Sequence record: OP018999.1
DNA: 43,714 nt
Origin: Escherichia phage NTNC80A
Strand: one strand, 5' to 3'
A program made the translations under genes and the position numbers. The stretch's first letter is position 1. Every line of letters starts with the position of its first letter. Positions 1 to 43,714 of this stretch are shown here, piece after piece. The notes beneath the pieces were generated by a model. It did no database searches and was not told where the DNA came from. It saw only the letters and a program-made list of their open reading frames with translations.

Positions 1-819
1 GTGGCTAGCGAGTTCGAGAATGGTAGGCTGATTGCGTACGATTTGTCTCAGACCCAAGGGTACACGGGGAATATGCGGTCTGCTGTGTCTGACATGCAGT
101 TCCATTCCACTAATATTGAAGGCTTCACACCACGGGACTTCTTCTATGACCTAGGACACTTCCCTACCTCTTACACTAATGGTTCTTTTATCATGAAGCA
201 TTGGCGAGAAAAAGACTTACAGGTACAATGGTATAATGGTAAAGCATTCATACGGCTACATGAAGAAGATGGCCGTGTAACACTTACCAGTAAAGAGGGC
301 CTCGCTTTGTATGACTTTCGTGCTACAAAAGACGTGACGTTCAAGGGTCGCAACTTTGTATTCAAAAACGATGCAAGTGCAGACGTATTGAAGTGGTTCG
401 GCGGTTCAGGAAATATCTCCACGAAAGGCAACATCTCACCTATGGTAGATGGGGTTCCCTCTCTAGGTACAAATTCCTATCGCTGGGGTGCAGTGCATTC
501 AGTAAATGGGACGTTACAAACCTCTGATGGTAGGCTAAAGGAAATACATGATATTAAACAAGAAGAACTTGATGCTGGGCTTGAATTGTCAGCAAGCCTA
601 ATCAAATATCGTTGGGATGGAGGAGAAAAGTTCCACTTTGGTTGTATCGCCCAAGAGGTAATGTTAATCATGGAGAAACATAAGCTAGACCCATTACAGT
701 ATGGAATGGTTCAGTATGATGAAGAGGCAGACATCTTTAGTGTAAACTACGCTGAATTGAACAGCTTCTGCATCGCAGCTCTGTCTAGGAGGTTGAATGC
801 CATTGATCAAATCAGTTAA
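1..819 (+). CDS. tail fibre / receptor-binding protein with C-terminal intramolecular-chaperone (peptidase S74-like) domain
   Basis: ORF starts with GTG at base 1 and ends TAA 817-819. C-terminal ~100 aa carry SDGRLKEI...FHFGCIAQEV...YAELNSF, the Ser-Lys autocleaving chaperone signature of phage fibres/endosialidases. The 5' end may be cut by the window; no SD is visible across the circular junction. Confidence 0.6.
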   Translation: MASEFENGRLIAYDLSQTQGYTGNMRSAVSDMQFHSTNIEGFTPRDFFYDLGHFPTSYTNGSFIMKHWREKDLQVQWYNGKAFIRLHEEDGRVTLTSKEGLALYDFRATKDVTFKGRNFVFKNDASADVLKWFGGSGNISTKGNISPMVDGVPSLGTNSYRWGAVHSVNGTLQTSDGRLKEIHDIKQEELDAGLELSASLIKYRWDGGEKFHFGCIAQEVMLIMEKHKLDPLQYGMVQYDEEADIFSVNYAELNSFCIAALSRRLNAIDQIS

Positions 820-946
820 GCAAAGTGCTGTACGCCAGAACACAGAAGAACTTATTCAATCAGGACGTGACCCTAAGCAGGCCTATGCCATTGCCAAGGA
901 TGTACAACGTCGTGCCATGAAGAAACCTTCTGCATCTTCTGCGTAG
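797..946 (+). CDS. hypothetical small basic protein (49 aa), last ORF before putative genome terminus
   Basis: ATG 797 follows an in-frame TGA; stop TAG 944-946. Overlaps the 3' end of the fibre ORF in another frame. Product MPLIKSVKQSAVRQNTEELIQSGRDPKQAYAIAKDVQRRAMKKPSASSA. No clear SD. Confidence 0.3.
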   Translation: MPLIKSVKQSAVRQNTEELIQSGRDPKQAYAIAKDVQRRAMKKPSASSA

Positions 947-1099
947 CAGGTAATATCTTAGTGTACACAAGGGCAGGCTTAGGTTTGCCCTTAGTGTATT
1001 CCAAAGGAGGTGGTATGTTATCTTTGTTGTGTATACTCAGTGATGTACTAGGTCGTAAGAGGTACATTCTTAGTGAAGACCAAATAAGGGATGAGAAGA

Positions 1100-1363
1100 T
1101 ACGGAGGTCGCTCACAAAGTAACCAAAGTCAAAATTTTGATGTAGGCGTGTGTCAGCTCTCTCGCCCTCGCCCTCGCCGGGACGTCCCCATAGGGTGCCT
1201 AGGCATTTCTAGGGCAGCGGGAGGGCCGCCACGGGCCTTTCTTAGTGAGGGCCAAAGGTTGCCTAGGCTAGCCGGAGGAGGGCCGAGGAGGGCCATTCAG
1301 GGCCGCTTGACAGCGTGTGTGGGCGTGGGCTATCTGTCCGTTTGTCGCTACGCTCCGCACTCA
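1100..1363. other. GC-rich repetitive tract, candidate terminal-repeat / concatemer-junction region
   Basis: Abrupt GC-rich non-coding DNA with short repeats (CTCGCC x3, GCCTAGG x2, GAGGGCC x3) between the last late gene and the first early promoter, where T7-group genomes carry their terminal redundancy. Confidence 0.35.
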
Positions 1364-1516
1364 CTACCTGACGTGTACCTTAGTTATTACCTTAGTAACT
1401 TCCTTATCGTGTACCTTGAGATAGTCTTAGTTACTACCTTAGTCACTTCCTTAGTAGCTACCTTAGTGAGTGGCTTAGTGGCTATCTATTGCTGTCTTAG
1501 TGTTACCTTAGTGATT
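1364..1516. repeat. tandem array of ~12 imperfect 12-bp repeats (core ACCTTAGT)
   Basis: Read directly: taccttagttat / taccttagtaac / ttccttatcgtg / taccttgagata / gtcttagttac / taccttagtcac / ttccttagtagc / taccttagtgag / tggcttagtggc ... taccttagtgat. Resembles the short repeat arrays next to the T7 terminal repeat. Confidence 0.7.
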
Positions 1517-1659
1517 GCATAGCTAAAGCTATAAGATGCAAATAGGTCGCGGTCGGTAGGCCGCTAAAGAAAGAGAATAGTAATAAGATGCAGTAGGAGG
1601 AACACCAGAAACCTAGCCAACCTAGCCTATCCTAGCCTTGTATCTATTGCTTTTCCTTA

Positions 1660-9285: not shown

Positions 9286-9446
9286 TGGGAATTATTAAAC
9301 CAGTATTGAATATCGGTATTGAGATCCTATTCATGCTTGTGATCGCAGATTATGCTGCACGATATGGCTTCAAGAAAGCAGTGAAACTTATCGTTGCATC
9401 TGGTTTTATGATGTCAATGTTCTTTATTGTAACACGCTTTATCTAG
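9285..9446 (+). CDS. small hydrophobic membrane protein (53 aa), hypothetical
   Basis: ATG overlaps the helicase stop (TAATG). MGIIKPVLNIGIEILFMLVIADYAARYGFKKAVKLIVASGFMMSMFFIVTRFI has two hydrophobic segments. Confidence 0.4.
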   Translation: MGIIKPVLNIGIEILFMLVIADYAARYGFKKAVKLIVASGFMMSMFFIVTRFI

Positions 9447-9463
9447 TGTATTTATCAGGGCTT

Positions 9464-9479
9464 GTCTCACATGTGAGAC
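9464..9479. repeat. 16-bp perfect palindrome within an extended hairpin
   Basis: gcttgtctcaca/tgtgagacaggc gives a ~12-bp stem, followed by CTCTTATT; could act as a terminator or processing site. Confidence 0.7.
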
Positions 9480-9519
9480 AGGCTCTTATTAAGTACATTA
9501 ACTAATTGGAGATAATATT

Positions 9520-19150: not shown

Positions 19151-20150
19151 ACTTCGTAGCCTGTTTAAAGACTCCGAGGTGCTTGACGCAATCGAGCAAG
19201 CTACCGACGAGAAAGGTAATGTTAACTATAATGAAATGGCGCACATCCTGTCTGCGCATCCGGTTGGCAAGAATATCACTCGCCAACTCGCTCGCTATTG
19301 GCATGGTCAGTTCAAGACGAAGAAGAAGAATGGTGACAACTACCAGTCACTTCTTCCAGAGAACAAACGCATTAAGGAGCAACGCAAGTTGCGCACTCCT
19401 GATCGCTATGAAGATCTGGCTGTTAACCCTCTGCCTGACTCGCCTCATCGAAGCATTCTGGTAATCCCTGATACCCACGCACCGTATGAGCATCCAGACA
19501 CGCTGGAGTTCTTGGCTGCTGTGGCTGCACGGTTCAAGCCTGATACCGTTGTTCACCTTGGTGACGAGGCAGACAAACATGCTATGTCGTTCCATGACTC
19601 AGACCCGAACCTTGACTCTGCTGGCATGGAACTTGAGAAGGCTCGTGTCTTTATGGAGAAGCTGCACCGTATGTTCCCTGTGATGCGCCTGTGTCACTCC
19701 AACCACGGCTCTATGCACTTCCGCAAGGCACACTCTCATGGCATCCCTGTACAGTACCTGCGTACATACCGTGAGGTGTTCTTCCCGCATGGGGGTGGTG
19801 AGCGTTGGGAGTGGCAGCACACGCATATTCTGGAGCTACCGAACGGTGAGCAGGTTGCATTCAAACACCAGCCAGCAGGTGCAGTTCTGACCGATGCAGC
19901 ACACGAGCGCATGAATCTGGTGTGTGGTCACTTGCATGGCAAGATGTCTATCGAGTACGCCAGTAATAGTCACGAGCAGTATTGGGCGGCTCAAGGTGGT
20001 TGCCTGATTGACGAGGGTTCTCGTGCATTCTCCTATGGTCGTGAGTCCAAGTACAAACCAGCGCTAGGCTGTCTGGTGATTATCGAGGGAGTACCTCAGA
20101 TCATCCCGATGCAGACAAATAGCGAAGGTCGCTGGGTCGGCAAGATTTAG
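19140..20150 (+). CDS. calcineurin-like metallophosphoesterase with ~100-aa N-terminal extension
   Basis: ATG 19140 after SD AGGAGG; motifs PDTHAP (DxH), LGDEAD (GDxxD), SNHG (GNH-like), GHLHG (GHxH). Confidence 0.85.
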   Translation: MVAKLRSLFKDSEVLDAIEQATDEKGNVNYNEMAHILSAHPVGKNITRQLARYWHGQFKTKKKNGDNYQSLLPENKRIKEQRKLRTPDRYEDLAVNPLPDSPHRSILVIPDTHAPYEHPDTLEFLAAVAARFKPDTVVHLGDEADKHAMSFHDSDPNLDSAGMELEKARVFMEKLHRMFPVMRLCHSNHGSMHFRKAHSHGIPVQYLRTYREVFFPHGGGERWEWQHTHILELPNGEQVAFKHQPAGAVLTDAAHERMNLVCGHLHGKMSIEYASNSHEQYWAAQGGCLIDEGSRAFSYGRESKYKPALGCLVIIEGVPQIIPMQTNSEGRWVGKI

Positions 20151-30415: not shown

Positions 30416-33358
30416 ATGGCAATTGAACGTCAAGCTGTACAAGGTCTTGAAAAGGTGCAGCCGAGAGTTGCGCCAACACCTATGTCTTTCACACCACGAC
30501 AAGTGAGCATCTCTGGTGGTACAGATGCCTCCGGTAGTAGGTTCTTGGAAGACCTAGTAAATGCTGCAAGTAGCGTGGCTGATGTCACCACTGCTATCCT
30601 TAATCAGCAAGTAGAAGATGATAAGGTTCGCCAGATGGACAGGGCGCTGTCTGGCATGATGCCTTCGGAGGATGCAACGGTAGGTGGTGCTCGTGCTCAC
30701 ATGCTGGTTAGTTTACAAAATGATGTAATCGCACAGACAACTGCGCTACAGGCAGAAGCACAGCGGTTTCAAGGGAGTGACGAAGATTGGGAGAACTATG
30801 TAGTTCAATCACGTAACGATGTGCAGAATAGGCTGTGGCAAAGTTACCCAGAACTTCGTGGTGACAAAGATTCTATGAGGCTTGTCACTAACGCGTTCAT
30901 GGAGCAGCAACCTAGAATTACTGCCACGAGAGCAGAGGCTAAACTTCGTCAAGAAGAAGAAGCGCGAATGCAATCTATGCAGTCTCGTATTATCATGGCT
31001 ACACGGGATGTAGCACCTGATGCCACTGGTGCAGCACTCATTCAGCTACAGAAAGAAGCACTGGCGATGGGTCTTAGTAAACCTGAGTTTGATCAAATGG
31101 TTGCTAAGATTGCATCTGATAGGGCGGCAGTAGGCGATGATAGTCTTATTCAGGGAACCAAAGCACTGGTGGACGATAAAGGTGTCTCTTTGTACGACCG
31201 TGTTGGTGCTTTGCAAACTGGAGAGATTCAAGCTAACAGAGCTTGGGCTGCACAGAATCAGGTCGCCCTCTTCGAGAAGAAGGATGCAGCTATAAAGGCA
31301 TTCGATGCAGGACAACTTACTCGTGAAGAGTTACTTCAGGTGATGCAGAATCACAATGAACTAACTGGTGGCACTGCTTGGTCAGATAGCGAGATTAAGG
31401 TTATCTTCGATAGACAAGCTAAGTCTAATGCAGAGAAAGCAAAGCTCGAAGATCTCATTGCACGAGGTGAATCTGGGTCGCCTTTAGGTTTACAGGACAT
31501 CAGTAAGGATGACAGAAAAACATATGCTGAAGCCTTAGTTAGTACCTACACTAAGTTGGCAGAAGATGAAATTGCCCGTACTGGTGCAACTGGAGAACAG
31601 GCTGAAGCTATTCGCGGTAGGTATGAGCAGATGCGTTATCTTAAGCTAGGGCAGCAACTTATTGAAGACCCAATCATTAAGGAAAGATATTCGTCGCTTA
31701 TGCAATTATCCTCTGCCAACCTTAAAGAGATGAATGTTGAGCCTGAAGCATTACAGACCATCATGCGAGCGCGGGACTCTATTCCAGAGGATGCACGTCG
31801 TGCTGTCATGGGAGACAAAGAGTATGCCTTTGTAGAGAACTACGATCTAGCAACTCGCATGGGGTATAACGCAGGTCAAGCTATTGAGTTTGCACAGAAT
31901 GCCTCTCGTGGAGAGAAGCTACAAGGTTCTGTACTTAAAGAACTGAATGATGATGTAGATGGAGTTGTAAGTGATGTGGCAGGAGGTAGTTGGCTTACTC
32001 GTGGCGATAATATGAGTGAGATGGGTCGTGACATTATGATGGAGGAGGCAAGTACAATTGCGAGAGCAATGAAGGTTGCAGGTCATAATAATGATACGAT
32101 TAAACGCCATCTTAAATCATATTTGACTAGCCAGTATACACAACTATCAGAGGGTTTCTTTACTCAAGGTGTTCTGGTGAAAGGTGATGTACGAACATTA
32201 GGTGACACTATAGGAGTAAACCAGAATGACCTTCCTATGGCGCTACGTCAATATATGGATAACAACAAGCAAGCACTTCTTGATGCATCAGGTGGCTTAG
32301 AAGGGGGTGATTTGTATTTTGATGTAGACGCGCAGCGTGGACTCTTTACCATACGTGCAGGCTCTGGTCGTGTACCTGTTACGCAGGCAATGCCTTTGTC
32401 TGAAATCAAAGGTCAGTCCTTGCTTAAGCAAAGATATGATGCAGAGGTTAAAGCCCGTGATGAGGGGCGTAAGAATTTTGAAGCACAGCAAATGAGGATG
32501 TGGGGTGCAGGTGGCTACCAAGCACAACCGCCTGCAAAGACTACAGCCAAAACTGTAGGCTCCCGTGGTATTGCTGACTTCTTAATGTCACCTGCCTTTG
32601 CATCCGGTGAGAACCTACCAGCAAACTTTGAGTTTGGGTATAAGAGGAATAATATGGACTTCTACAATTATGTAGCCAAGGCTGAGAATAGTGCCAATGT
32701 GGGCTTTGATAGAGTAGCTGGTGTTTATACACCCTACAAAGATGCACATGGTCAGTCTGTTGGGTATGGACACTTCCTTACTGCTGAAGAGAAGAAGAAC
32801 GGGTATATTATGATTGGCACAGATAAAGTGCCATTTACTCCGGGACAATCTCAACTAACACCAGAAAGAGCTATGCTCCTTCTACAGCAAGACTTGAAGA
32901 GCCATGTGCCAAGCACTTCAGGGTGGGCTGTTCCCTTCGAAGAGATGCACCCAGGTGTTCAGCGTGGCCTTATGGATTTGTCATATAATCTAGGCAAAGG
33001 CGGTATCCAGAATGCACCGAAGGCATATGCTGCGTTTAAGGCTGGCAAGTTCACTGATGGGTTTATTGAGATGCTATCTACTGCATCTACTGAAGGTAAA
33101 CGTAGCACTGGCTTGTTGGTTCGTAGGGCAGAAGCCTATAACCTTGCACAGAGTGGAGGTGCTGTCCCTAAGATCAGTGAAGTAGAGACACGAGCAGATG
33201 GTTCCATGTATGTGAAGTTTGCAGGACAAATGTCAGAGGCTTTCGTAAGTAAATCAATCTACAATCAGATTGGTAAGGATGGGTGGATGCAAGTGTATCC
33301 TCCAAAGCAAGGTGCGCTTGCACCTAACACTCAGATTGGTAGAATCAAACTAAGCTAG
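30416..33358 (+). CDS. internal virion (ejection) protein with C-terminal lysozyme-like domain
   Basis: 980 aa; C-terminal YKDAHGQSVGYGHFL resembles the T4 lysozyme YKDTEGYYTIGIGHLL region. Confidence 0.85.
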   Translation: MAIERQAVQGLEKVQPRVAPTPMSFTPRQVSISGGTDASGSRFLEDLVNAASSVADVTTAILNQQVEDDKVRQMDRALSGMMPSEDATVGGARAHMLVSLQNDVIAQTTALQAEAQRFQGSDEDWENYVVQSRNDVQNRLWQSYPELRGDKDSMRLVTNAFMEQQPRITATRAEAKLRQEEEARMQSMQSRIIMATRDVAPDATGAALIQLQKEALAMGLSKPEFDQMVAKIASDRAAVGDDSLIQGTKALVDDKGVSLYDRVGALQTGEIQANRAWAAQNQVALFEKKDAAIKAFDAGQLTREELLQVMQNHNELTGGTAWSDSEIKVIFDRQAKSNAEKAKLEDLIARGESGSPLGLQDISKDDRKTYAEALVSTYTKLAEDEIARTGATGEQAEAIRGRYEQMRYLKLGQQLIEDPIIKERYSSLMQLSSANLKEMNVEPEALQTIMRARDSIPEDARRAVMGDKEYAFVENYDLATRMGYNAGQAIEFAQNASRGEKLQGSVLKELNDDVDGVVSDVAGGSWLTRGDNMSEMGRDIMMEEASTIARAMKVAGHNNDTIKRHLKSYLTSQYTQLSEGFFTQGVLVKGDVRTLGDTIGVNQNDLPMALRQYMDNNKQALLDASGGLEGGDLYFDVDAQRGLFTIRAGSGRVPVTQAMPLSEIKGQSLLKQRYDAEVKARDEGRKNFEAQQMRMWGAGGYQAQPPAKTTAKTVGSRGIADFLMSPAFASGENLPANFEFGYKRNNMDFYNYVAKAENSANVGFDRVAGVYTPYKDAHGQSVGYGHFLTAEEKKNGYIMIGTDKVPFTPGQSQLTPERAMLLLQQDLKSHVPSTSGWAVPFEEMHPGVQRGLMDLSYNLGKGGIQNAPKAYAAFKAGKFTDGFIEMLSTASTEGKRSTGLLVRRAEAYNLAQSGGAVPKISEVETRADGSMYVKFAGQMSEAFVSKSIYNQIGKDGWMQVYPPKQGALAPNTQIGRIKLS
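32195..32218 (+). promoter_or_regulatory. promoter-like sequence inside the internal virion protein gene
   Basis: cattaggtgacactataggag: 16/18 match to the SP6-type core. Confidence 0.4.
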
Positions 33359-33375
33359 TGGTATACTCAAGGTTT

Positions 33376-33391
33376 GTCTCACATGTGAGAC
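33376..33391. repeat. 16-bp perfect palindrome (18 bp with flanks)
   Basis: tGTCTCACATGTGAGACa between two internal virion protein genes. Confidence 0.8.
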
Positions 33392-33425
33392 ATGCCTTCA
33401 TGAATGACACTAACTAGGAGGTAAC

Positions 33426-36400: not shown

Positions 36401-37229
36401 CAATAAGAGACTAAAGCAACATTTGATGGGTGAGAGACAGTTACCCAAAGCAGACCTTGAAGAAGTAGGCCTAAGTGAAGATGTCATGAAAAGGCTTAAG
36501 CGTCACTTTGATGATAACCCACTGTATGCTGATTACAATGGAGAAAAAGTTCGTATGATGAACTTTGATGCTATGGAGCCAGACCTGAGAGAGACAGTAG
36601 GTATTGCTGTGCGAAGAATGTCAGGGCGTCTTATTCAGCGTAACTTCATAGGTGATGAAGGTATCTGGATGAATAAATGGTGGGGTAAGGCATTAACGCA
36701 GTTTAAGTCATTCTCTATCGTCTCTATTGAGAAACAGCTAATCCATGATTTACGAGGTGATAAGATTCAGGCTGCACAGATACTTGCATGGTCTACCTTA
36801 CTAGGTTATGCATCTTATGCACTACAGATGCAGATGCAAGCAATCGGTAGGGAGGACAGAGACAAGTTCTTGAGGGATAAGTTTGAGACACAGAACCTCG
36901 CTATGGGTGTCTTTAATAAACTCCCACAAGTTGCAGGCTTCGGTCTTGCTGGTGATGCTTTGGCAACCTTTGGTCTAATGCCAGACTCCCTGATGCAAGC
37001 ACCGGGACGTATGGGCTTCCGTCAGCAAGGGTTTGGTGATTTGGTAGCAGGTGCTGGTGTAATCAGTGATACCGTTAATCTATCGCAAGCACTAGTTAAG
37101 TATGCCAATGGGGATGATGATGTCTCTACTAGGCAGTTGGTGGACAAGGTGCGTCGCCTTGTTCCTTTGGCAAATACTATTGGTGTAGGTCAGATGACTA
37201 AAGCCAGTGTAGACTTATTGGAGGATTGA
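33426..37229 (+). CDS. large internal virion (ejection) protein
   Basis: 1267 aa, size and position like T7 gp16. Confidence 0.88.
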   Translation: MVDGINQNWVAVTQRKLPPTFSQVAEAERKAEAQRVNDKVFQTAIESEWALYGGQRAYERHTTEFAEQEGYEVPESTKDELSKLYGYEIAQDIVKNVKSPEELQFRMSNAAADKDRADILARNGFTGFSAQIAAGILDPVGWAASLVAAPVAGAVKVGRLGRIIKTAALSGAENAALEAILAQGDYQRGVDDVLAAAGFGMIMGGTIGAATRERIASAGSRTAAERADTVIDDLDTVVKGADEFDLSAARAVREAMEYDAYMAARNYEPLRAREVDADMAILSHTDNLKANASVRMSASEKGQLKKQIRQLEAEAATLKGKKIDTVAEAAAAKGAPKSAADRLDLDVQKKALARRFDEPLADLQARLDELNAKLSRVNNVGKAKEELKRFSSLSREEQIKELGLDAPVRRVEMTRAVRDAVEAIRAERKKTPTEVHAEQVAEDAIKQRADDSVGAKRVEGSEIAGEQFDLSKNMEELMDDLAREAYQSEVRPINLKGLGSVSSVILNSENPVFRGLGLRLLENAQGGAYQGKTASILSDVYGNLIRHAERNRYNDGFSQFIKDNNLRAVDYLNPATTRDFNNQIYTAIVRGIPEDTPRGVKLAAEGIADKLKKALEIRKQAGERGFEDVQSAKDYIPVIYDGIKVTEAVNKLGSSEAVIHLLSKGYQTGKYKLGKKAADALAKVQYIRASDSTLSSRVAFDRVVSQQQQAQLIEDLKKAGVPDHIIDNFIEGTELAEMAESVSNRAKASMGINTQAEYGGLKVQDLLNTNVGELAENYGKEAAGGAALAAMGFPTRQSVLNAIDAAERAGRNMAGSNAKAIKQLRSEAEMLRDAVKLIYGNTIDADPNSGIVRGTRRVREITGLLRLGQMGFAQIPELARAISKMGLGTVLKSTPATKFLRSRAARKGGTAQGELLEPELREMEELLGYIGEDNWLTGWNVRHDEFGETADNLGKLSAIIDNGLAMGSRINTILSGFKAVQGGSEKIVARSINKRLKQHLMGERQLPKADLEEVGLSEDVMKRLKRHFDDNPLYADYNGEKVRMMNFDAMEPDLRETVGIAVRRMSGRLIQRNFIGDEGIWMNKWWGKALTQFKSFSIVSIEKQLIHDLRGDKIQAAQILAWSTLLGYASYALQMQMQAIGREDRDKFLRDKFETQNLAMGVFNKLPQVAGFGLAGDALATFGLMPDSLMQAPGRMGFRQQGFGDLVAGAGVISDTVNLSQALVKYANGDDDVSTRQLVDKVRRLVPLANTIGVGQMTKASVDLLED

Positions 37230-38188
37230 TGAGTTACACATTCACTGAACATACAGCGAATGGCACTCAAACTACCTTCCCCTTCCGGTTCGCTGGGAGG
37301 GACAAGGGGTACTTGAGGGCTTCTGATATTTTAGTTGAAGTAAGAAATGATGGTGTGTGGAACACAGTAAGTGGTTGGACACTTACAGGTACTAACCAGA
37401 TAACCTTTAATGTACCACCAGCGGCAAATACAAAACTTCGCATCAGGCGCGTTGTAGAGAAAGAAGAGCCTTATGCAGAGTTTGACCGTGGTGTAACCTT
37501 AGATATGAAATCTCTCAATAACTCCTTTATACATCTTTTGGAAGTATCTCAGGAGCTACTGGATGGTTTCTATCCAGATGGTTACTTTGTAAAGCAAGAT
37601 GTATCTTGGGGCGGACATAAGATTACTGATTTGGCTGATGGCACAAATCCGGGAGATGCAGTAAATAAAGGGCAGCTTGATGCCATTGACAAGAAGCATA
37701 CAGATTGGAACGCCAAACAGGACATTGAGATTGCTGGGCTTAAAGCGGGTATGACTTCTGGTATTGCACACAGAACTGTTCCTTGGTACACGATCGCCCA
37801 AGGAGGTGAGATTTCCGTAAAACCTCCTTATGAATTTCAAGATGCACTAGTTTTCCTTAATGGAGTATTGCAACACCAAATCGTAGGCGCATACTCTATA
37901 AGCAACAACACTATCACTTTCGCAGAGCCACTTGTGGCTGGCACAGAGGTGTACGTGTTGATAGGGAGTCGTGTGGCTACATCTGAACCTAATATTCAGT
38001 TAGAGTTGAACTTTGACTTAGTAGAAGGTCAACAAGTAGTAAAGATTGGCTCTGCATTTAAGTATATTGAGGTTTATCTTGATGGATTATTACAACCTAA
38101 ACTTGCGTATCAGGTAGACGGTGACATTGTTACTTTCTCAGAGGGAGTACCAGAATGCCGGATGACTGCTAAGATTATCACAGCATAA
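37229..38188 (+). CDS. tail fibre adaptor protein (T7 gp17 N-domain-like)
   Basis: N-terminus aligns with the T7 gp17 tail-attachment domain as recalled; no long fibre shaft follows. Confidence 0.8.
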   Translation: MSYTFTEHTANGTQTTFPFRFAGRDKGYLRASDILVEVRNDGVWNTVSGWTLTGTNQITFNVPPAANTKLRIRRVVEKEEPYAEFDRGVTLDMKSLNNSFIHLLEVSQELLDGFYPDGYFVKQDVSWGGHKITDLADGTNPGDAVNKGQLDAIDKKHTDWNAKQDIEIAGLKAGMTSGIAHRTVPWYTIAQGGEISVKPPYEFQDALVFLNGVLQHQIVGAYSISNNTITFAEPLVAGTEVYVLIGSRVATSEPNIQLELNFDLVEGQQVVKIGSAFKYIEVYLDGLLQPKLAYQVDGDIVTFSEGVPECRMTAKIITA

Positions 38189-40595: not shown

Positions 40596-40720
40596 AGACC
40601 AAGAGAATAAAGGAATATTATAGGATAATATAGGATTACCTAGGTTATAGGTATACCTTAGTATGGGTGTACTCCTGTACACCCTATTCCTACTTACTTA
40701 TACTAATATCATAGGAGGTA
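40596..40720. other. AT-rich leader sharing ATAGGATTACCTAGG with the 7021-7035 region; candidate secondary origin
   Basis: Exact 15-mer at 40630-40644 and 7021-7035, both just downstream of a phage promoter. Confidence 0.3.
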
Positions 40721-40722
40721 TA

Positions 40723-41001
40723 ATGGCTAATGACTATAGTAATCAACCCTTAACAGGACGATACGATAGGAAACAAGTACAGCCTATCAGTGAACACTTG
40801 ATGGTTCCAAGTGTTAACACTGATATTGATTTATATAACCCAGCAAAACAAGGTAGTGTTATTAATGATGCTACAAAATCTGGTAAACAGAAAGGTGCTA
40901 TGATTGCTTCAGGACTGGGTGTGATTATGTTAGCTCAAGGAAGTAAACCTACAGACAAGTGGTATCAAACAACGACTGAACAGATTATTGTTCCACAATA
41001 A
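40723..41001 (+). CDS. small protein, paralog 1 of the SGKQ(K/E)G family (92 aa)
   Basis: ATG 40723 with SD AGGAGG (ORF track 40663); ...TKSGKQKGAMIASGLGVIMLAQGSKPTDKWYQ. Confidence 0.6.
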   Translation: MANDYSNQPLTGRYDRKQVQPISEHLMVPSVNTDIDLYNPAKQGSVINDATKSGKQKGAMIASGLGVIMLAQGSKPTDKWYQTTTEQIIVPQ

Positions 41002-41013
41002 GAGGAGGGTAAT

Positions 41014-41298
41014 ATGGCAAAATATGGTGAAGCGAATACAGTAACAGGTCAAGTTTTTCGTACTAAAGAGGTTCAAACTATTGCAACAGCACTACCGTTG
41101 CCAGTTGTGTTAGAAGAAGATTTGAAATCAAAAGTACACCCTATTAATATCAACCACCTGTCTGGTAAGCAGAAGGGGGCAATGGTAGCAGTACAGAAGG
41201 CGGACAGCTCACTGTATATTGCAGTTGCACGAGGTGATTTGCCAGAGTCGCCGTGGGATGTTACAGCAATGAGTGTAGCCGTAACACCGGGAGAGTGA
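41014..41298 (+). CDS. small protein, paralog 2 of the SGKQ(K/E)G family (94 aa)
   Basis: SD GAGGAGGG; ...HLSGKQKGAMVAVQKADSSLYIAVARGD. Confidence 0.6.
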   Translation: MAKYGEANTVTGQVFRTKEVQTIATALPLPVVLEEDLKSKVHPININHLSGKQKGAMVAVQKADSSLYIAVARGDLPESPWDVTAMSVAVTPGE

Positions 41299-41302
41299 TA
41301 CT

Positions 41303-41980
41303 ATGTTAGGTGTTACTGGACAAAGACGTGCTAGTCACAAGTCAAAGGTTGCGGCGGAAGTCGCACCTTTAGTAGATTTAAATTCAATAAAAGATATACA
41401 ATCTTATCTAAACCAGAGATACCTTTCCGGTAAGCAAGAGGGCTACGCTGTACTAGCTAAAGTAGATGGAGGTTATTCTCTTTATGTTGCATCTGGTTCA
41501 AAGGTATCAGATAAATGGGTTCTTATGAAACAAGGTGTTTCAGAAGACTCTTCCTCATTAGAGCTGGTGGATGTAATAAATACTAATGTTGAGAGCTTAA
41601 GTGATACTGTAGAGGTTAATGTAACAAAAGAAAGAACTGTCTGTGTTCAAACCCCAATGATAGACTTAGCAGGTACAGTTGTATACCGTCAGGCATTAAC
41701 CGCTAACCTTAATATTACTATTAATGAGAATGGCAGTCCGGGTGATACTGTTAAACTAAAAGTTAGTATACCAGATTTACCTGGTACAAGTGGTGGGTCT
41801 TACTATACGCTGGATAATGTATTGTGTACAGCTTATAGTGAAAATGACCCTGTTACAGTAAACATAGATGTAGATGCAGCTAATACAAGCAGTATTACAG
41901 TATCTTTGAGGAAGGAGACAGCTACAGATATTAAGCTATCTTTCTTATTCATATGGTCTATGCCTATGGAGGTAGTATAG
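41303..41980 (+). CDS. paralog 3 of the SGKQ(K/E)G family with beta-rich C-terminal extension (225 aa)
   Basis: ...YLSGKQEGYAVLAKVDGGYSLYVASGSKVSDKWVL, then Thr/Val/Asn-rich strand-like sequence. Confidence 0.65.
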   Translation: MLGVTGQRRASHKSKVAAEVAPLVDLNSIKDIQSYLNQRYLSGKQEGYAVLAKVDGGYSLYVASGSKVSDKWVLMKQGVSEDSSSLELVDVINTNVESLSDTVEVNVTKERTVCVQTPMIDLAGTVVYRQALTANLNITINENGSPGDTVKLKVSIPDLPGTSGGSYYTLDNVLCTAYSENDPVTVNIDVDAANTSSITVSLRKETATDIKLSFLFIWSMPMEVV

Positions 41981-42898: not shown

Positions 42899-42921
42899 AT
42901 TTACTGGACACTATAGAAGAG
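42899..42921 (+). promoter_or_regulatory. phage RNAP promoter (consensus) driving the fibre genes
   Basis: atttactggacactatagaagag; +1 G at 42916. Confidence 0.75.
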
Positions 42922-43000
42922 ATAAGATAGCGCCGTTCTTTTGAGCGGCCTATTACTAGCCAATCTTCATAGGGAGGGTTGGAAAGTAATAGGAGATAGC

Positions 43001-43714
43001 ATGGCTAAATTAACCAAACCTAAGACTGAAGGAATCTTGCATAAAGGACAATCTTTGTATGAGTACCTTGATGCGAGAGTTTTAACATCAAAGCCGTTTG
43101 GTGCTGTAGGTGGGGGCACTTCTTCTCAAGTTCGCCTATTTACTTCTGATGGTACTTCTCGGACAGTGTCCCTCACCAACGGTAACGTGCGTCTTTCTAC
43201 CAGTAGCACAGGCTATTTGCAGTTAGGTGCTGATGCAATGACCCCAGATAGTACTGGTACATACGCATTAGGTTCCGCCAGTCGAGCATGGTCTGGTGGT
43301 TTTACTCAAGCAGCATTCACTGTTACCTCAGATGCTCGGTGTAAAACAGAACCTCTTACTATCTCAGATGCCTTACTGGATGCTTGGTCTGAAGTTGACT
43401 TTGTGCAGTTTCAGTATTTGGATCGTGTTGAGGAGAAGGGTGCAGACTCAGCTAGATGGCACTTTGGCATCATCGCTCAGCGAGCTAAGGAGGCTTTCGA
43501 ACGTCACGGTATAGATGCACATCGCTATGGCTTCTTGTGCTTCGACAGTTGGGATGATGTATACGAGGAAGATGCCAATGGCTCTCGTAAACTGATTACA
43601 CCAGCAGGTTCTCGCTACGGTATTCGTTACGAGGAAGTACTGATATTAGAGGCTGCGTTGATGCGTCGGACTATTAAGCGTATGCAGGAGGCACTAGCTT
43701 CCCTGCCTAAGTAA
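43001..43714 (+). CDS. tail fibre protein with C-terminal intramolecular-chaperone (peptidase S74-like) domain
   Basis: ATG 43001 with SD AGGAGA (ORF track 42941); SDARCKTE ... ARWHFGIIAQRA ... YGIRYEEV autocleavage/chaperone signature; TAA is the last codon of the window. Confidence 0.8.
   Translation: MAKLTKPKTEGILHKGQSLYEYLDARVLTSKPFGAVGGGTSSQVRLFTSDGTSRTVSLTNGNVRLSTSSTGYLQLGADAMTPDSTGTYALGSASRAWSGGFTQAAFTVTSDARCKTEPLTISDALLDAWSEVDFVQFQYLDRVEEKGADSARWHFGIIAQRAKEAFERHGIDAHRYGFLCFDSWDDVYEEDANGSRKLITPAGSRYGIRYEEVLILEAALMRRTIKRMQEALASLPK

What the first reader, a model, noticed from the sequence alone, without database searches (positions are those of the whole stretch)
43001..43714. First of two adjacent short tail-fibre genes, each with its own autocleaving chaperone domain
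Removing the C-terminal chaperone (starts near SDARCKTE) would leave a mature fibre of only ~120 aa. This gene abuts the second fibre gene (1..819) across the window junction. Podophages with an SP6-type RNAP usually carry large enzymatic tailspikes, so two short chaperone-processed fibres are an unusual receptor-binding apparatus and the likely host-range determinant.
Basis: partly seen in the sequence, partly recalled or inferred. Interest (0 to 1): 0.6.

Follow-up and report, generated by a model that had tools for sequence, protein, structure and literature searches.

The report
K5-lyase tailspike gene missing its enzyme domain
The "short tail fibre" is the well-known K5-capsule lyase tailspike of K1-5-like coliphages with its enzyme domain cleanly deleted, and its "second short fibre" neighbour is only the back end of the next tailspike gene, cut off by the window edge, so this is a degraded or incompletely assembled ordinary tailspike locus and not a new receptor-binding apparatus.

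Summary
The window is a circularly permuted Vectrevirus genome (the K1-5/K1E/SP6 group).

**Gene 43001..43714 (237 aa).** The gene is real and carries a genuine peptidase S74 chaperone domain (Pfam 3.6e-15, Ser110/Lys115, fold match to solved chaperones). It is not a natural short fibre. It is K1-5 gp46, the 632-aa K5 lyase, with an in-frame 1185-bp deletion of residues 36-430. That deletion removes the whole beta-helix lyase domain and lies between two 10-bp repeats, GCTGTAGGTG. What remains is:
- the MAKLTKP peptide that docks on adaptor gp37;
- the 76-aa C-terminal stalk;
- the chaperone.

The likely product is a 110-aa non-enzymatic trimeric stub, functionally like the small gp46 of phage K1E.

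**ORF 1..819.** This is codons 412-683 of a 683-aa gp47 tailspike, as in Vectrevirus DIJ06P1. About 1.3 kb is absent from the window: the conserved intergenic terminator and ribosome-binding site, the gp37-docking undecapeptide and half of the beta-helix.

**Open point.** The sequence alone cannot say whether the two genes truly abut (a second deletion) or the contig is simply broken there.

No other public sequence I searched carries either junction. The S74 observation is confirmed. The "unusual two-short-fibre apparatus" reading is not. Interest is low.

The parts
42900..42919 (+). Phage-RNAP promoter (TTTACTGGACACTATAGAAG) upstream of the gene
   Evidence: One of 11 matches to the promoter consensus, against 0 expected by chance. 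It sits at the same position as the promoter before gp46 in relatives.
42991..42996 (+). Shine-Dalgarno AGGAGA, 4 nt upstream of the ATG
   Evidence: Read directly from the sequence.
43001..43714 (+). gp46-delta: K5-lyase tailspike gene with the beta-helix lyase domain deleted in frame (237 aa plus stop)
   Evidence: BLASTP against K1-5 gp46: residues 35-237 equal 430-632 at 99%, and residues 1-34 equal 1-34. The PHROG 14895 profile is matched in two stretches, the best at profile positions 430-632 of 632.
43001..43021 (+). MAKLTKP heptapeptide, the reported docking peptide for adaptor gp37
   Evidence: Read from the sequence. Its role is taken from PMC6872550, citing Leiman 2007. It is also conserved in K1E gp46.
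43103..43112 (+). Deletion junction: a single copy of the 10-mer GCTGTAGGTG
   Evidence: The same 10-mer is at nt 103 of gp46 in DIJ06P1 and at nt 1288 in K1-5. The spacing of 1185 nt equals the missing length and is in frame.
43103..43330 (+). C-terminal stalk / trimerisation domain of the lyase (aa 35-110), ending in the cleavage-site Ser110 (43328-43330)
   Evidence: Identical to KflA chain 2x3h residues 467-542, which is the end of the crystallised mature chain.
43331..43711 (+). Peptidase S74 intramolecular chaperone domain (aa 111-237; Lys115 at 43343-43345)
   Evidence: Pfam PF13884, E = 3.6e-15. PDB sequence hits 3gud at 2.9e-23 and 3gw6 at 1.7e-21. Foldseek top hits 3gw6, 3gud and 4uw8.
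1..819 (+). 3' fragment (codons 412-683 plus stop) of a DIJ06P1-type gp47 tailspike gene. It has its own S74 domain but no anchor, start signals or N-terminal half.
   Evidence: 94% aa identity to residues 412-683 of the 683-aa ORF in OZ035817.1. Pfam S74 at 30.5 bits. It matches PHROG 1171 profile positions 653-890 of 954. There is no Shine-Dalgarno sequence.
37229..38188 (+). gp37 adaptor, the protein that both tailspikes dock onto
   Evidence: 64% identity over 317 aa to K1E gp37. PHROG 2710 tail fiber, E = 1.3e-145.

Best explanation
**What the gene is.** Gene 43001..43714 is an internally deleted allele of the Vectrevirus gp46 K5-capsule lyase tailspike. Recombination or replication slippage between two in-frame 10-bp direct repeats (GCTGTAGGTG) 1185 bp apart removed residues 36-430, which form the entire right-handed beta-helix lyase domain.

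**What it retains.**
- Its promoter and ribosome-binding site.
- The N-terminal MAKLTKP peptide that docks on adaptor gp37.
- The 76-residue C-terminal intertwined stalk.
- The S74 chaperone with its Ser110/Lys115 dyad.

**Inferred mechanism.** The chaperone still drives trimerisation of the stalk and then cleaves itself off after Ser110. This leaves a roughly 11-kDa, 110-aa trimeric stub that fills the gp46 site on gp37 but has no capsule-degrading or receptor-binding activity. That makes it a functional analogue of the small non-enzymatic gp46 of phage K1E.

**The neighbour.** The neighbouring 'second fibre' (1..819) is the 3' 40% of a gp47 tailspike gene truncated at the window boundary. 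About 1.3 kb of DNA that every relative carries between the two is absent. Either the contig is broken there, or a second deletion has also destroyed gp47.

**Conclusion.** In either case this is a decayed or incompletely represented canonical gp37/gp46/gp47 tailspike locus, not a distinct short-fibre system.
For: **Shown.**
- The window protein is 99% identical over 203 aa to K1-5 gp46 residues 430-632, and residues 1-34 match the gp46 N-terminus.
- Every relative with most of this stretch (32 records covering at least 80% of the query) spans about 2.9 kb where the window has 1.7 kb.
- The 10-mer occurs at both deletion endpoints in relatives, exactly 1185 nt apart.
- The S74 domain is supported by Pfam, the dyad motif and the fold match, and the KflA crystal chain ends at the same Ser.
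- A promoter and a Shine-Dalgarno sequence are present.
- The gp37 adaptor is present.
- The ORF at 1..819 equals codons 412-683 of DIJ06P1 gp47.
- The gp46-gp47 intergenic element, which is conserved in K1-5, K1E and DIJ06P1, is absent from the window. So are the undecapeptide and gp47 residues 1-411.

**From the literature.**
- The MAKLTKP heptapeptide and the MIQRLGSSLVK undecapeptide are reported to dock the two tailspikes on gp37 (PMC6872550).
- K1E carries a small, truncated, non-enzymatic gp46 on gp37 (PMC6966330).

**Inferred.** Folding, cleavage and virion incorporation of the stub.
Against: - No experiment shows that the stub folds, cleaves or binds gp37.
- The AlphaFold monomer model is unconfident for residues 1-39 and for much of the stalk. 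This is expected for an obligate trimer, but it gives no support either.
- The deletion allele was found nowhere else: not in 50,697 phage records, IMG/VR, JGI metagenomes or the protein collections. It could therefore be a recent, even defective, variant or one confined to a sub-population.
- The state of gp47 in the real phage is unresolved.
Confidence: 0.8

Rival explanations
1. The window is a complete circular map and the TAA|GTG junction is real. A second deletion of 1318 bp removed the intergenic region and gp47 codons 1-411. The phage (or a sub-population of it) would then lack both depolymerase domains and infect acapsular or rough hosts through a tailspike-independent route.
For: - The first deletion shows that tailspike loss has happened in this lineage.
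- The window reads through the collapsed terminal repeat, as a circular assembly would.
- Its length of 43.7 kb is within the range of the genus.
- Both contig ends fall exactly where a deletion variant would branch from the wild type.
- There is weak in-register microhomology at the junction, GCC(T)AAGT..G, with P about 0.03-0.06.
- SP6 is reported to infect rough Salmonella (PMC6966330 citing Tu 2017).
Against: - The microhomology is barely above chance.
- The junction is absent from IMG/VR and JGI metagenomes.
- I saw no terminal overlap marking circularity between the ends read.
- For a clonal circular genome, linearisation exactly at the only rearrangement junction would be a 1 in 43,714 coincidence.
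- The gp47 remnant shows no decay: 35 synonymous against 16 non-synonymous codon changes relative to DIJ06P1, and no stops.
Confidence: 0.38
2. One reading: two bona fide short, chaperone-processed tail fibres form an unusual receptor-binding apparatus and determine host range.
For: Both ORFs are open and both carry S74 domains. In a circular reading the GTG follows the TAA directly, so translational coupling is conceivable.
Against: - Both are demonstrable fragments of longer, known tailspikes.
- The mature gp46 stub consists only of the anchor plus the stalk.
- The second ORF lacks the docking undecapeptide, a promoter and a ribosome-binding site.
- In an exhaustive search, none of the 150 best hits aligned to the query from its N-terminus; all matches lay in the stalk and chaperone part. 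Most hits were 450-1100 aa with the match at their C-terminus.
Confidence: 0.04
3. The gp46 deletion is itself an assembly or sequencing artefact, and the phage carries an intact K5 lyase.
For: The junction is unique among all searched collections. The same assembly already looks incomplete at gp47.
Against: - The repeat at the junction is only 10 bp, too short to mislead k-mer or overlap assemblers.
- The join is in frame and lies exactly between repeat copies, the classic signature of a biological slippage or illegitimate-recombination deletion.
- There is no residual lyase-domain sequence anywhere in the window.
Confidence: 0.08

Closest known systems
K5 lyase tailspike gp46 of coliphage K1-5 / KflA of phage K5A (PDB 2x3h)
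   Same: - The N-terminal 34 aa, including the MAKLTKP docking peptide.
- The C-terminal 203 aa, 99% identical, comprising the stalk, the cleavage Ser and the S74 chaperone.
- The same promoter and genomic position, after the lysis genes and before gp47.
   Different: Residues 36-430, the whole beta-helix lyase domain, are missing. The protein therefore cannot bind or cleave K5 heparosan capsule: 237 aa against 632 aa.
gp46 of coliphage K1E (111 aa, small non-enzymatic occupant of the gp37 site)
   Same: A short protein at the gp46 position that begins MAKLTKPKT and has no enzymatic domain. By analogy it would act as a stub on adaptor gp37.
   Different: There is no sequence similarity beyond the first 9 residues or so. 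K1E gp46 has no stalk homologous to KflA and no S74 chaperone. The origins differ: the window protein is a fresh deletion allele, whereas K1E gp46 is an established gene.
Peptidase S74 C-terminal intramolecular chaperone domains (endosialidase endoNF 3gw6, phi29 gp12 3gud, T5 pb1 4uw8)
   Same: The Pfam family, the Ser-Lys dyad motif S-D-x-R-x-K, the fold, and the C-terminal position after a trimeric beta stalk.
   Different: Here the domain serves a cargo of only 110 residues instead of a 500-1300-residue spike or fibre.
gp47 tailspike of Vectrevirus DIJ06P1 (OZ035817.1, 683 aa)
   Same: Window 1..819 is 94% identical at the protein level to its residues 412-683, including the S74 domain, and is followed by the same gp48 and right-end sequences.
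   Different: The window lacks its first 411 codons (the undecapeptide anchor and the N-terminal half of the pectate-lyase-like beta-helix) and the upstream conserved intergenic region.

Membership tests
Peptidase S74 / C-terminal intramolecular chaperone domain | Match to Pfam PF13884 above the gathering score | tested here: met
   56.4 bits against a cut-off of 22 for 43001..43714, and 30.5 bits for ORF 1..819.
Peptidase S74 / C-terminal intramolecular chaperone domain | Catalytic Ser-Lys dyad (S-D-x-R-x-K) at the N-terminal edge of the domain | tested here: met
   S110-D-A-R-C-K115. S110, D111 and K115 are nearly invariant in 31 homologues. The KflA crystal chain ends at this Ser. ORF 1..819 has SDGRLK.
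Peptidase S74 / C-terminal intramolecular chaperone domain | Fold of the solved chaperone domains | tested here: met
   The AF2 model (pLDDT about 77-97 over most of residues 111-237) has Foldseek top hits 3gw6 (E = 5e-12), 3gud (TMt 0.72) and 4uw8.
Peptidase S74 / C-terminal intramolecular chaperone domain | Autoproteolytic release after trimer assembly | not testable with these tools
   Needs SDS-PAGE or mass spectrometry of the expressed protein or of virions.
K5 lyase (KflA/gp46) tailspike | Right-handed parallel beta-helix lyase domain (about residues 36-429) | tested here: not met
   Absent. BLASTP and tblastn find only residues 1-34 and 430-632, and there is no trace elsewhere in the window.
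K5 lyase (KflA/gp46) tailspike | N-terminal MAKLTKP gp37-docking peptide, plus the C-terminal stalk and chaperone | tested here: met
SP6/K1-5-type dual tailspike apparatus (gp37 + gp46 + gp47) | gp37 adaptor gene present | tested here: met
   37229..38188, 64% identical to K1E gp37.
SP6/K1-5-type dual tailspike apparatus (gp37 + gp46 + gp47) | Second tailspike with the N-terminal undecapeptide (M[IL]QRLG[AS]S[LM]VK) and its own ribosome-binding site after the conserved intergenic element | tested here: not met
   No undecapeptide in any of the six frames. The conserved intergenic motifs are absent even allowing 3 mismatches. This may reflect missing sequence rather than biology.
K1E gp46-like stub | Sequence homology to K1E gp46 beyond the docking peptide | tested here: not met
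   Only MAKLTKPKT is shared. The window protein is an analogue, not a member.

The most novel reading that the evidence does not exclude
Both deletions are real and fixed, giving a naturally 'spikeless' Vectrevirus. Its gp37 adaptors would carry only a 110-aa self-processed stub and nothing at the gp47 site. Such a phage would adsorb through the tail itself to a capsule-independent receptor. The S74 chaperone would be retained because even the stub needs it to trimerise. This would be a minimal natural test case for what the chaperone and the adaptor require.
Probability: 0.25. Interest if true: 0.45.

Novelty: new variant of a known kind. Interest (0 to 1): 0.2.

Why it matters
- The main value is as a correction. 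Annotating these ORFs as two novel short tail fibres would be wrong. They are remnants of the standard K5-lyase and gp47 tailspikes.
- If the deletion allele is real in the phage stock, that phage should have lost K5-capsule specificity. This matters for host-range prediction and for therapeutic use.
- The allele is also a ready-made minimal construct: docking peptide, 76-aa stalk and chaperone. It could be used to ask how little cargo an S74 chaperone and the gp37 site will accept.
- If gp47 is also deleted, the phage would be a natural example of tailspike-independent infection in this group.

Tried and rejected
1. **Looked for the same gp46 deletion junction elsewhere.**
   - The 141-bp junction probe against 50,697 phage records gave no record covering at least 80% of the probe; hits matched only one side of the junction.
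   - Exact-pattern scans of IMG/VR and JGI metagenomes found nothing.
2. **Looked for the window-end/start junction** (CCTAAGTAAGTGGCTAGCGAG) in IMG/VR and JGI metagenomes. Nothing was found.
3. **Tried to find the source contig** by exact-protein look-up of four window proteins. None is on record.
4. **Searched for natural short proteins with this architecture.**
   - A word-indexed search of 5.8 billion proteins gave only C-terminal matches at up to 86% coverage for the closest relatives. Every one of the 8 hits I read lacks the MAKLTKP N-terminus, and most look like internal-Met or partial gene calls.
   - In an exhaustive HMMER search of 1.84 billion representatives, none of the 150 best hits aligns from query residue 1.
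5. **Tested whether microhomology proves that the window-end junction is a real deletion.** The result is only marginal, P about 0.03-0.06.
6. **Checked whether a repeat could have broken the assembly.** There are no repeats of 16 bp or more between the missing segments (taken from relatives) and the window.
7. **Checked whether the re-sequenced K1E record KY435490.1**, which is also split inside gp47, shows loss. It appears to be only a circular permutation.
8. **Considered K1E gp46 as a homologue.** Rejected, because only the first 9 residues match.
9. **Considered the 225-aa ORF 41303..41980 as an alternative receptor-binding protein.** It is a variable member of the gp41/gp42 family found in other Vectreviruses. 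There is no evidence for such a role.
10. **Tu 2017 and Gebhart 2017** could not be read, because they are not held.

Full report
**Identity of the window**

The window is a Vectrevirus genome (Autographiviridae, Molineuxvirinae; the K1-5/K1E/SP6 group). It is about 88-90% identical in nucleotides to phages such as LL11 and VEc3. It carries 11 phage-RNAP promoters.

The genome is circularly permuted. The left end of K1-5 maps to about window position 1162, and I saw only one copy of the terminal-repeat region. The window edges are therefore not the physical ends of the genome. They fall inside the tailspike locus, which in this group lies at the right end of the genome.

**The observation**

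The ORF at 43001..43714 is real. It has an ATG start, a Shine-Dalgarno AGGAGA at 42991-42996 and a consensus promoter at 42900-42919.

Its C-terminal half is a bona fide peptidase S74 intramolecular chaperone domain:
- Pfam PF13884 scores 56.4 bits against a cut-off of 22.
- Sequence matches to solved chaperones are 3gud at 2.9e-23 and 3gw6 at 1.7e-21.
- The S110-D-A-R-C-K115 dyad motif is conserved across 31 homologues.
- An AlphaFold model that is confident over most of this part has the three solved chaperone structures as its best PDB matches.
- The deposited chain of the K5 lyase crystal structure 2x3h ends exactly at the corresponding Ser.

**What the gene really is**

BLASTP against K1-5 gp46, the 632-aa K5 lyase, gives two blocks. 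Residues 35-237 match 430-632 at 99% identity, and residues 1-34 match the gp46 N-terminus. Residues 36-430, which form the beta-helix lyase domain, are gone.

At the DNA level, every relative that has most of this stretch spans about 2.9 kb where the window has 1.7 kb.

The junction sits on a single copy of GCTGTAGGTG (43103-43112). The same 10-mer occurs at nt 103 of gp46 in DIJ06P1 and at nt 1288 in K1-5. The two sites are exactly 1185 nt apart and in frame. This is the signature of a slippage or illegitimate-recombination deletion between short direct repeats. A 10-bp repeat is too short to explain an assembler error.

No other sequence carries this junction:
- none of 50,697 phage records;
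- none in IMG/VR;
- none in JGI metagenomes.

No protein found in two very large searches has the N-terminal anchor fused to the stalk and chaperone.

**The 'second fibre'**

ORF 1..819 is 94% identical to residues 412-683 of the 683-aa gp47 tailspike of Vectrevirus DIJ06P1. The GTG at window position 1 is codon Val412 of that gene.

In relatives, the gp46 stop is followed by an ~85-bp intergenic element, most of it nearly invariant. It contains a terminator-like hairpin and an AAAGGAGG ribosome-binding site, and it is conserved even between phages whose gp46 or gp47 differ. The gp47 N-terminus then carries the gp37-docking undecapeptide.

None of this is present in the window. The last 20 nt of the window contain no Shine-Dalgarno sequence.

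About 1318 bp is therefore absent between the window end and the window start. As it stands, the ORF is a promoterless, anchorless fragment.

**Is the adjacency real?**

I could not settle this.
- For a real second deletion, at least in a sub-population:
  - one tailspike deletion already exists in this genome;
  - the contig reads through the terminal repeat;
  - the contig ends are exactly where a deletion variant would branch from the wild type;
  - there is weak in-register microhomology at the junction, P about 0.03-0.06.
- For a broken contig:
  - I saw no overlap between the ends read;
  - no public sequence has the junction;
  - the fragment is undecayed, with 35 synonymous against 16 non-synonymous codon differences from DIJ06P1;
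  - linearising a clean circle exactly at its only scar would be a remarkable coincidence.

I put roughly 0.4 on the junction existing in real molecules and roughly 0.55 on missing sequence.

**Mechanism**

Shown:
- Expression signals are intact.
- The gp37 adaptor is encoded at 37229..38188 and is 64% identical to K1E gp37.
- The protein keeps the MAKLTKP heptapeptide, the KflA C-terminal stalk and a complete S74 domain.

From the literature:
- MAKLTKP is reported to dock K5 lyase on gp37, and an undecapeptide docks gp47 (PMC6872550).
- Phage K1E naturally carries a small, truncated, non-enzymatic gp46 on gp37 (PMC6966330).

Inferred:
- The chaperone trimerises the stalk and cleaves after Ser110.
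- The resulting 110-aa stub occupies the gp46 site without any depolymerase function, so K5 specificity is lost.

K1E gp46 is only an analogue. It shares nothing beyond MAKLTKPKT and has no S74 domain.

**Comparison and novelty**

The closest known entity is K1-5 gp46 / KflA. The window protein meets that family's anchor, stalk and chaperone features but fails its defining lyase domain. It is a member of the S74 chaperone family on all computational criteria. It is a new deletion variant of a known tailspike, not a new kind of fibre.

In the exhaustive search, S74-bearing relatives are mostly 450-1100 aa with the match at their C-terminus. The short hits that I read lack the anchor, and most look like fragments.

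**Verdict**

The S74 observation is confirmed. The 'two adjacent short fibres as an unusual receptor-binding apparatus' interpretation is not supported. Interest is low, at 0.2. The only modestly interesting possibility is a genuinely spikeless Vectrevirus, which read mapping or a single PCR would settle.

Noticed in passing
window 1113-1540: The physical genome ends lie inside the window. The K1-5 left end aligns at about 1162, and I saw only one copy of the terminal-repeat region. It is followed by arrays of CCTTAGT-like short repeats (about 1370-1520). The 143-aa ORF at 1091..1522 listed there is probably spurious.
   Followed up: partly
window 3176-42919 (11 sites): There are two flavours of phage-RNAP promoter core. 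The K1-5-like TTTAC(T/C)GGACACTATAG(A/G)AG occurs about 8 times. The SP6-like TTTAGGTGACACTATAGAA occurs at 20146 and 32197, and another copy was seen at about 14870 in the repeat scan.
   Followed up: no
window 40663-41980: Three tandem paralogous ORFs of 112, 94 and 225 aa share an SGKQ(K/E)G...(K/P)W motif (PHROG 2725/32357, misleadingly labelled 'acetyl-CoA acetyltransferase'). The 225-aa one is an insertion relative to K1-5 and DIJ06P1, but it occurs at 66-68% identity in PK1A2, UTI89UKE2 and other Vectreviruses. Its function is unknown.
   Followed up: partly
window 9443-9504, 33355-33416 (and a similar hairpin near 1660-1680): A repeated element of about 62 nt centred on the palindrome TGTCTCACATGTGAGACA, with 76% identity between the two copies. 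It may be a terminator or an RNase III-type processing site.
   Followed up: no
window 797-946: A 49-aa ORF overlaps the end of the gp47 fragment. It is the homologue of K1-5 gene 48 (93% nt identity over 794-1011), which confirms that the downstream context of the fragment is the canonical right end of the genome.
   Followed up: partly
L004/L006 (KY435490.1, re-sequenced K1E): This GenBank 'complete genome' is linearised inside the endosialidase gene gp47. As a result the gene is left largely unannotated: 1.7 kb without a CDS at the record start and a 324-aa C-terminal CDS at the record end. It is an example of how permuted assemblies create false short 'tail fibre' ORFs.
   Followed up: partly
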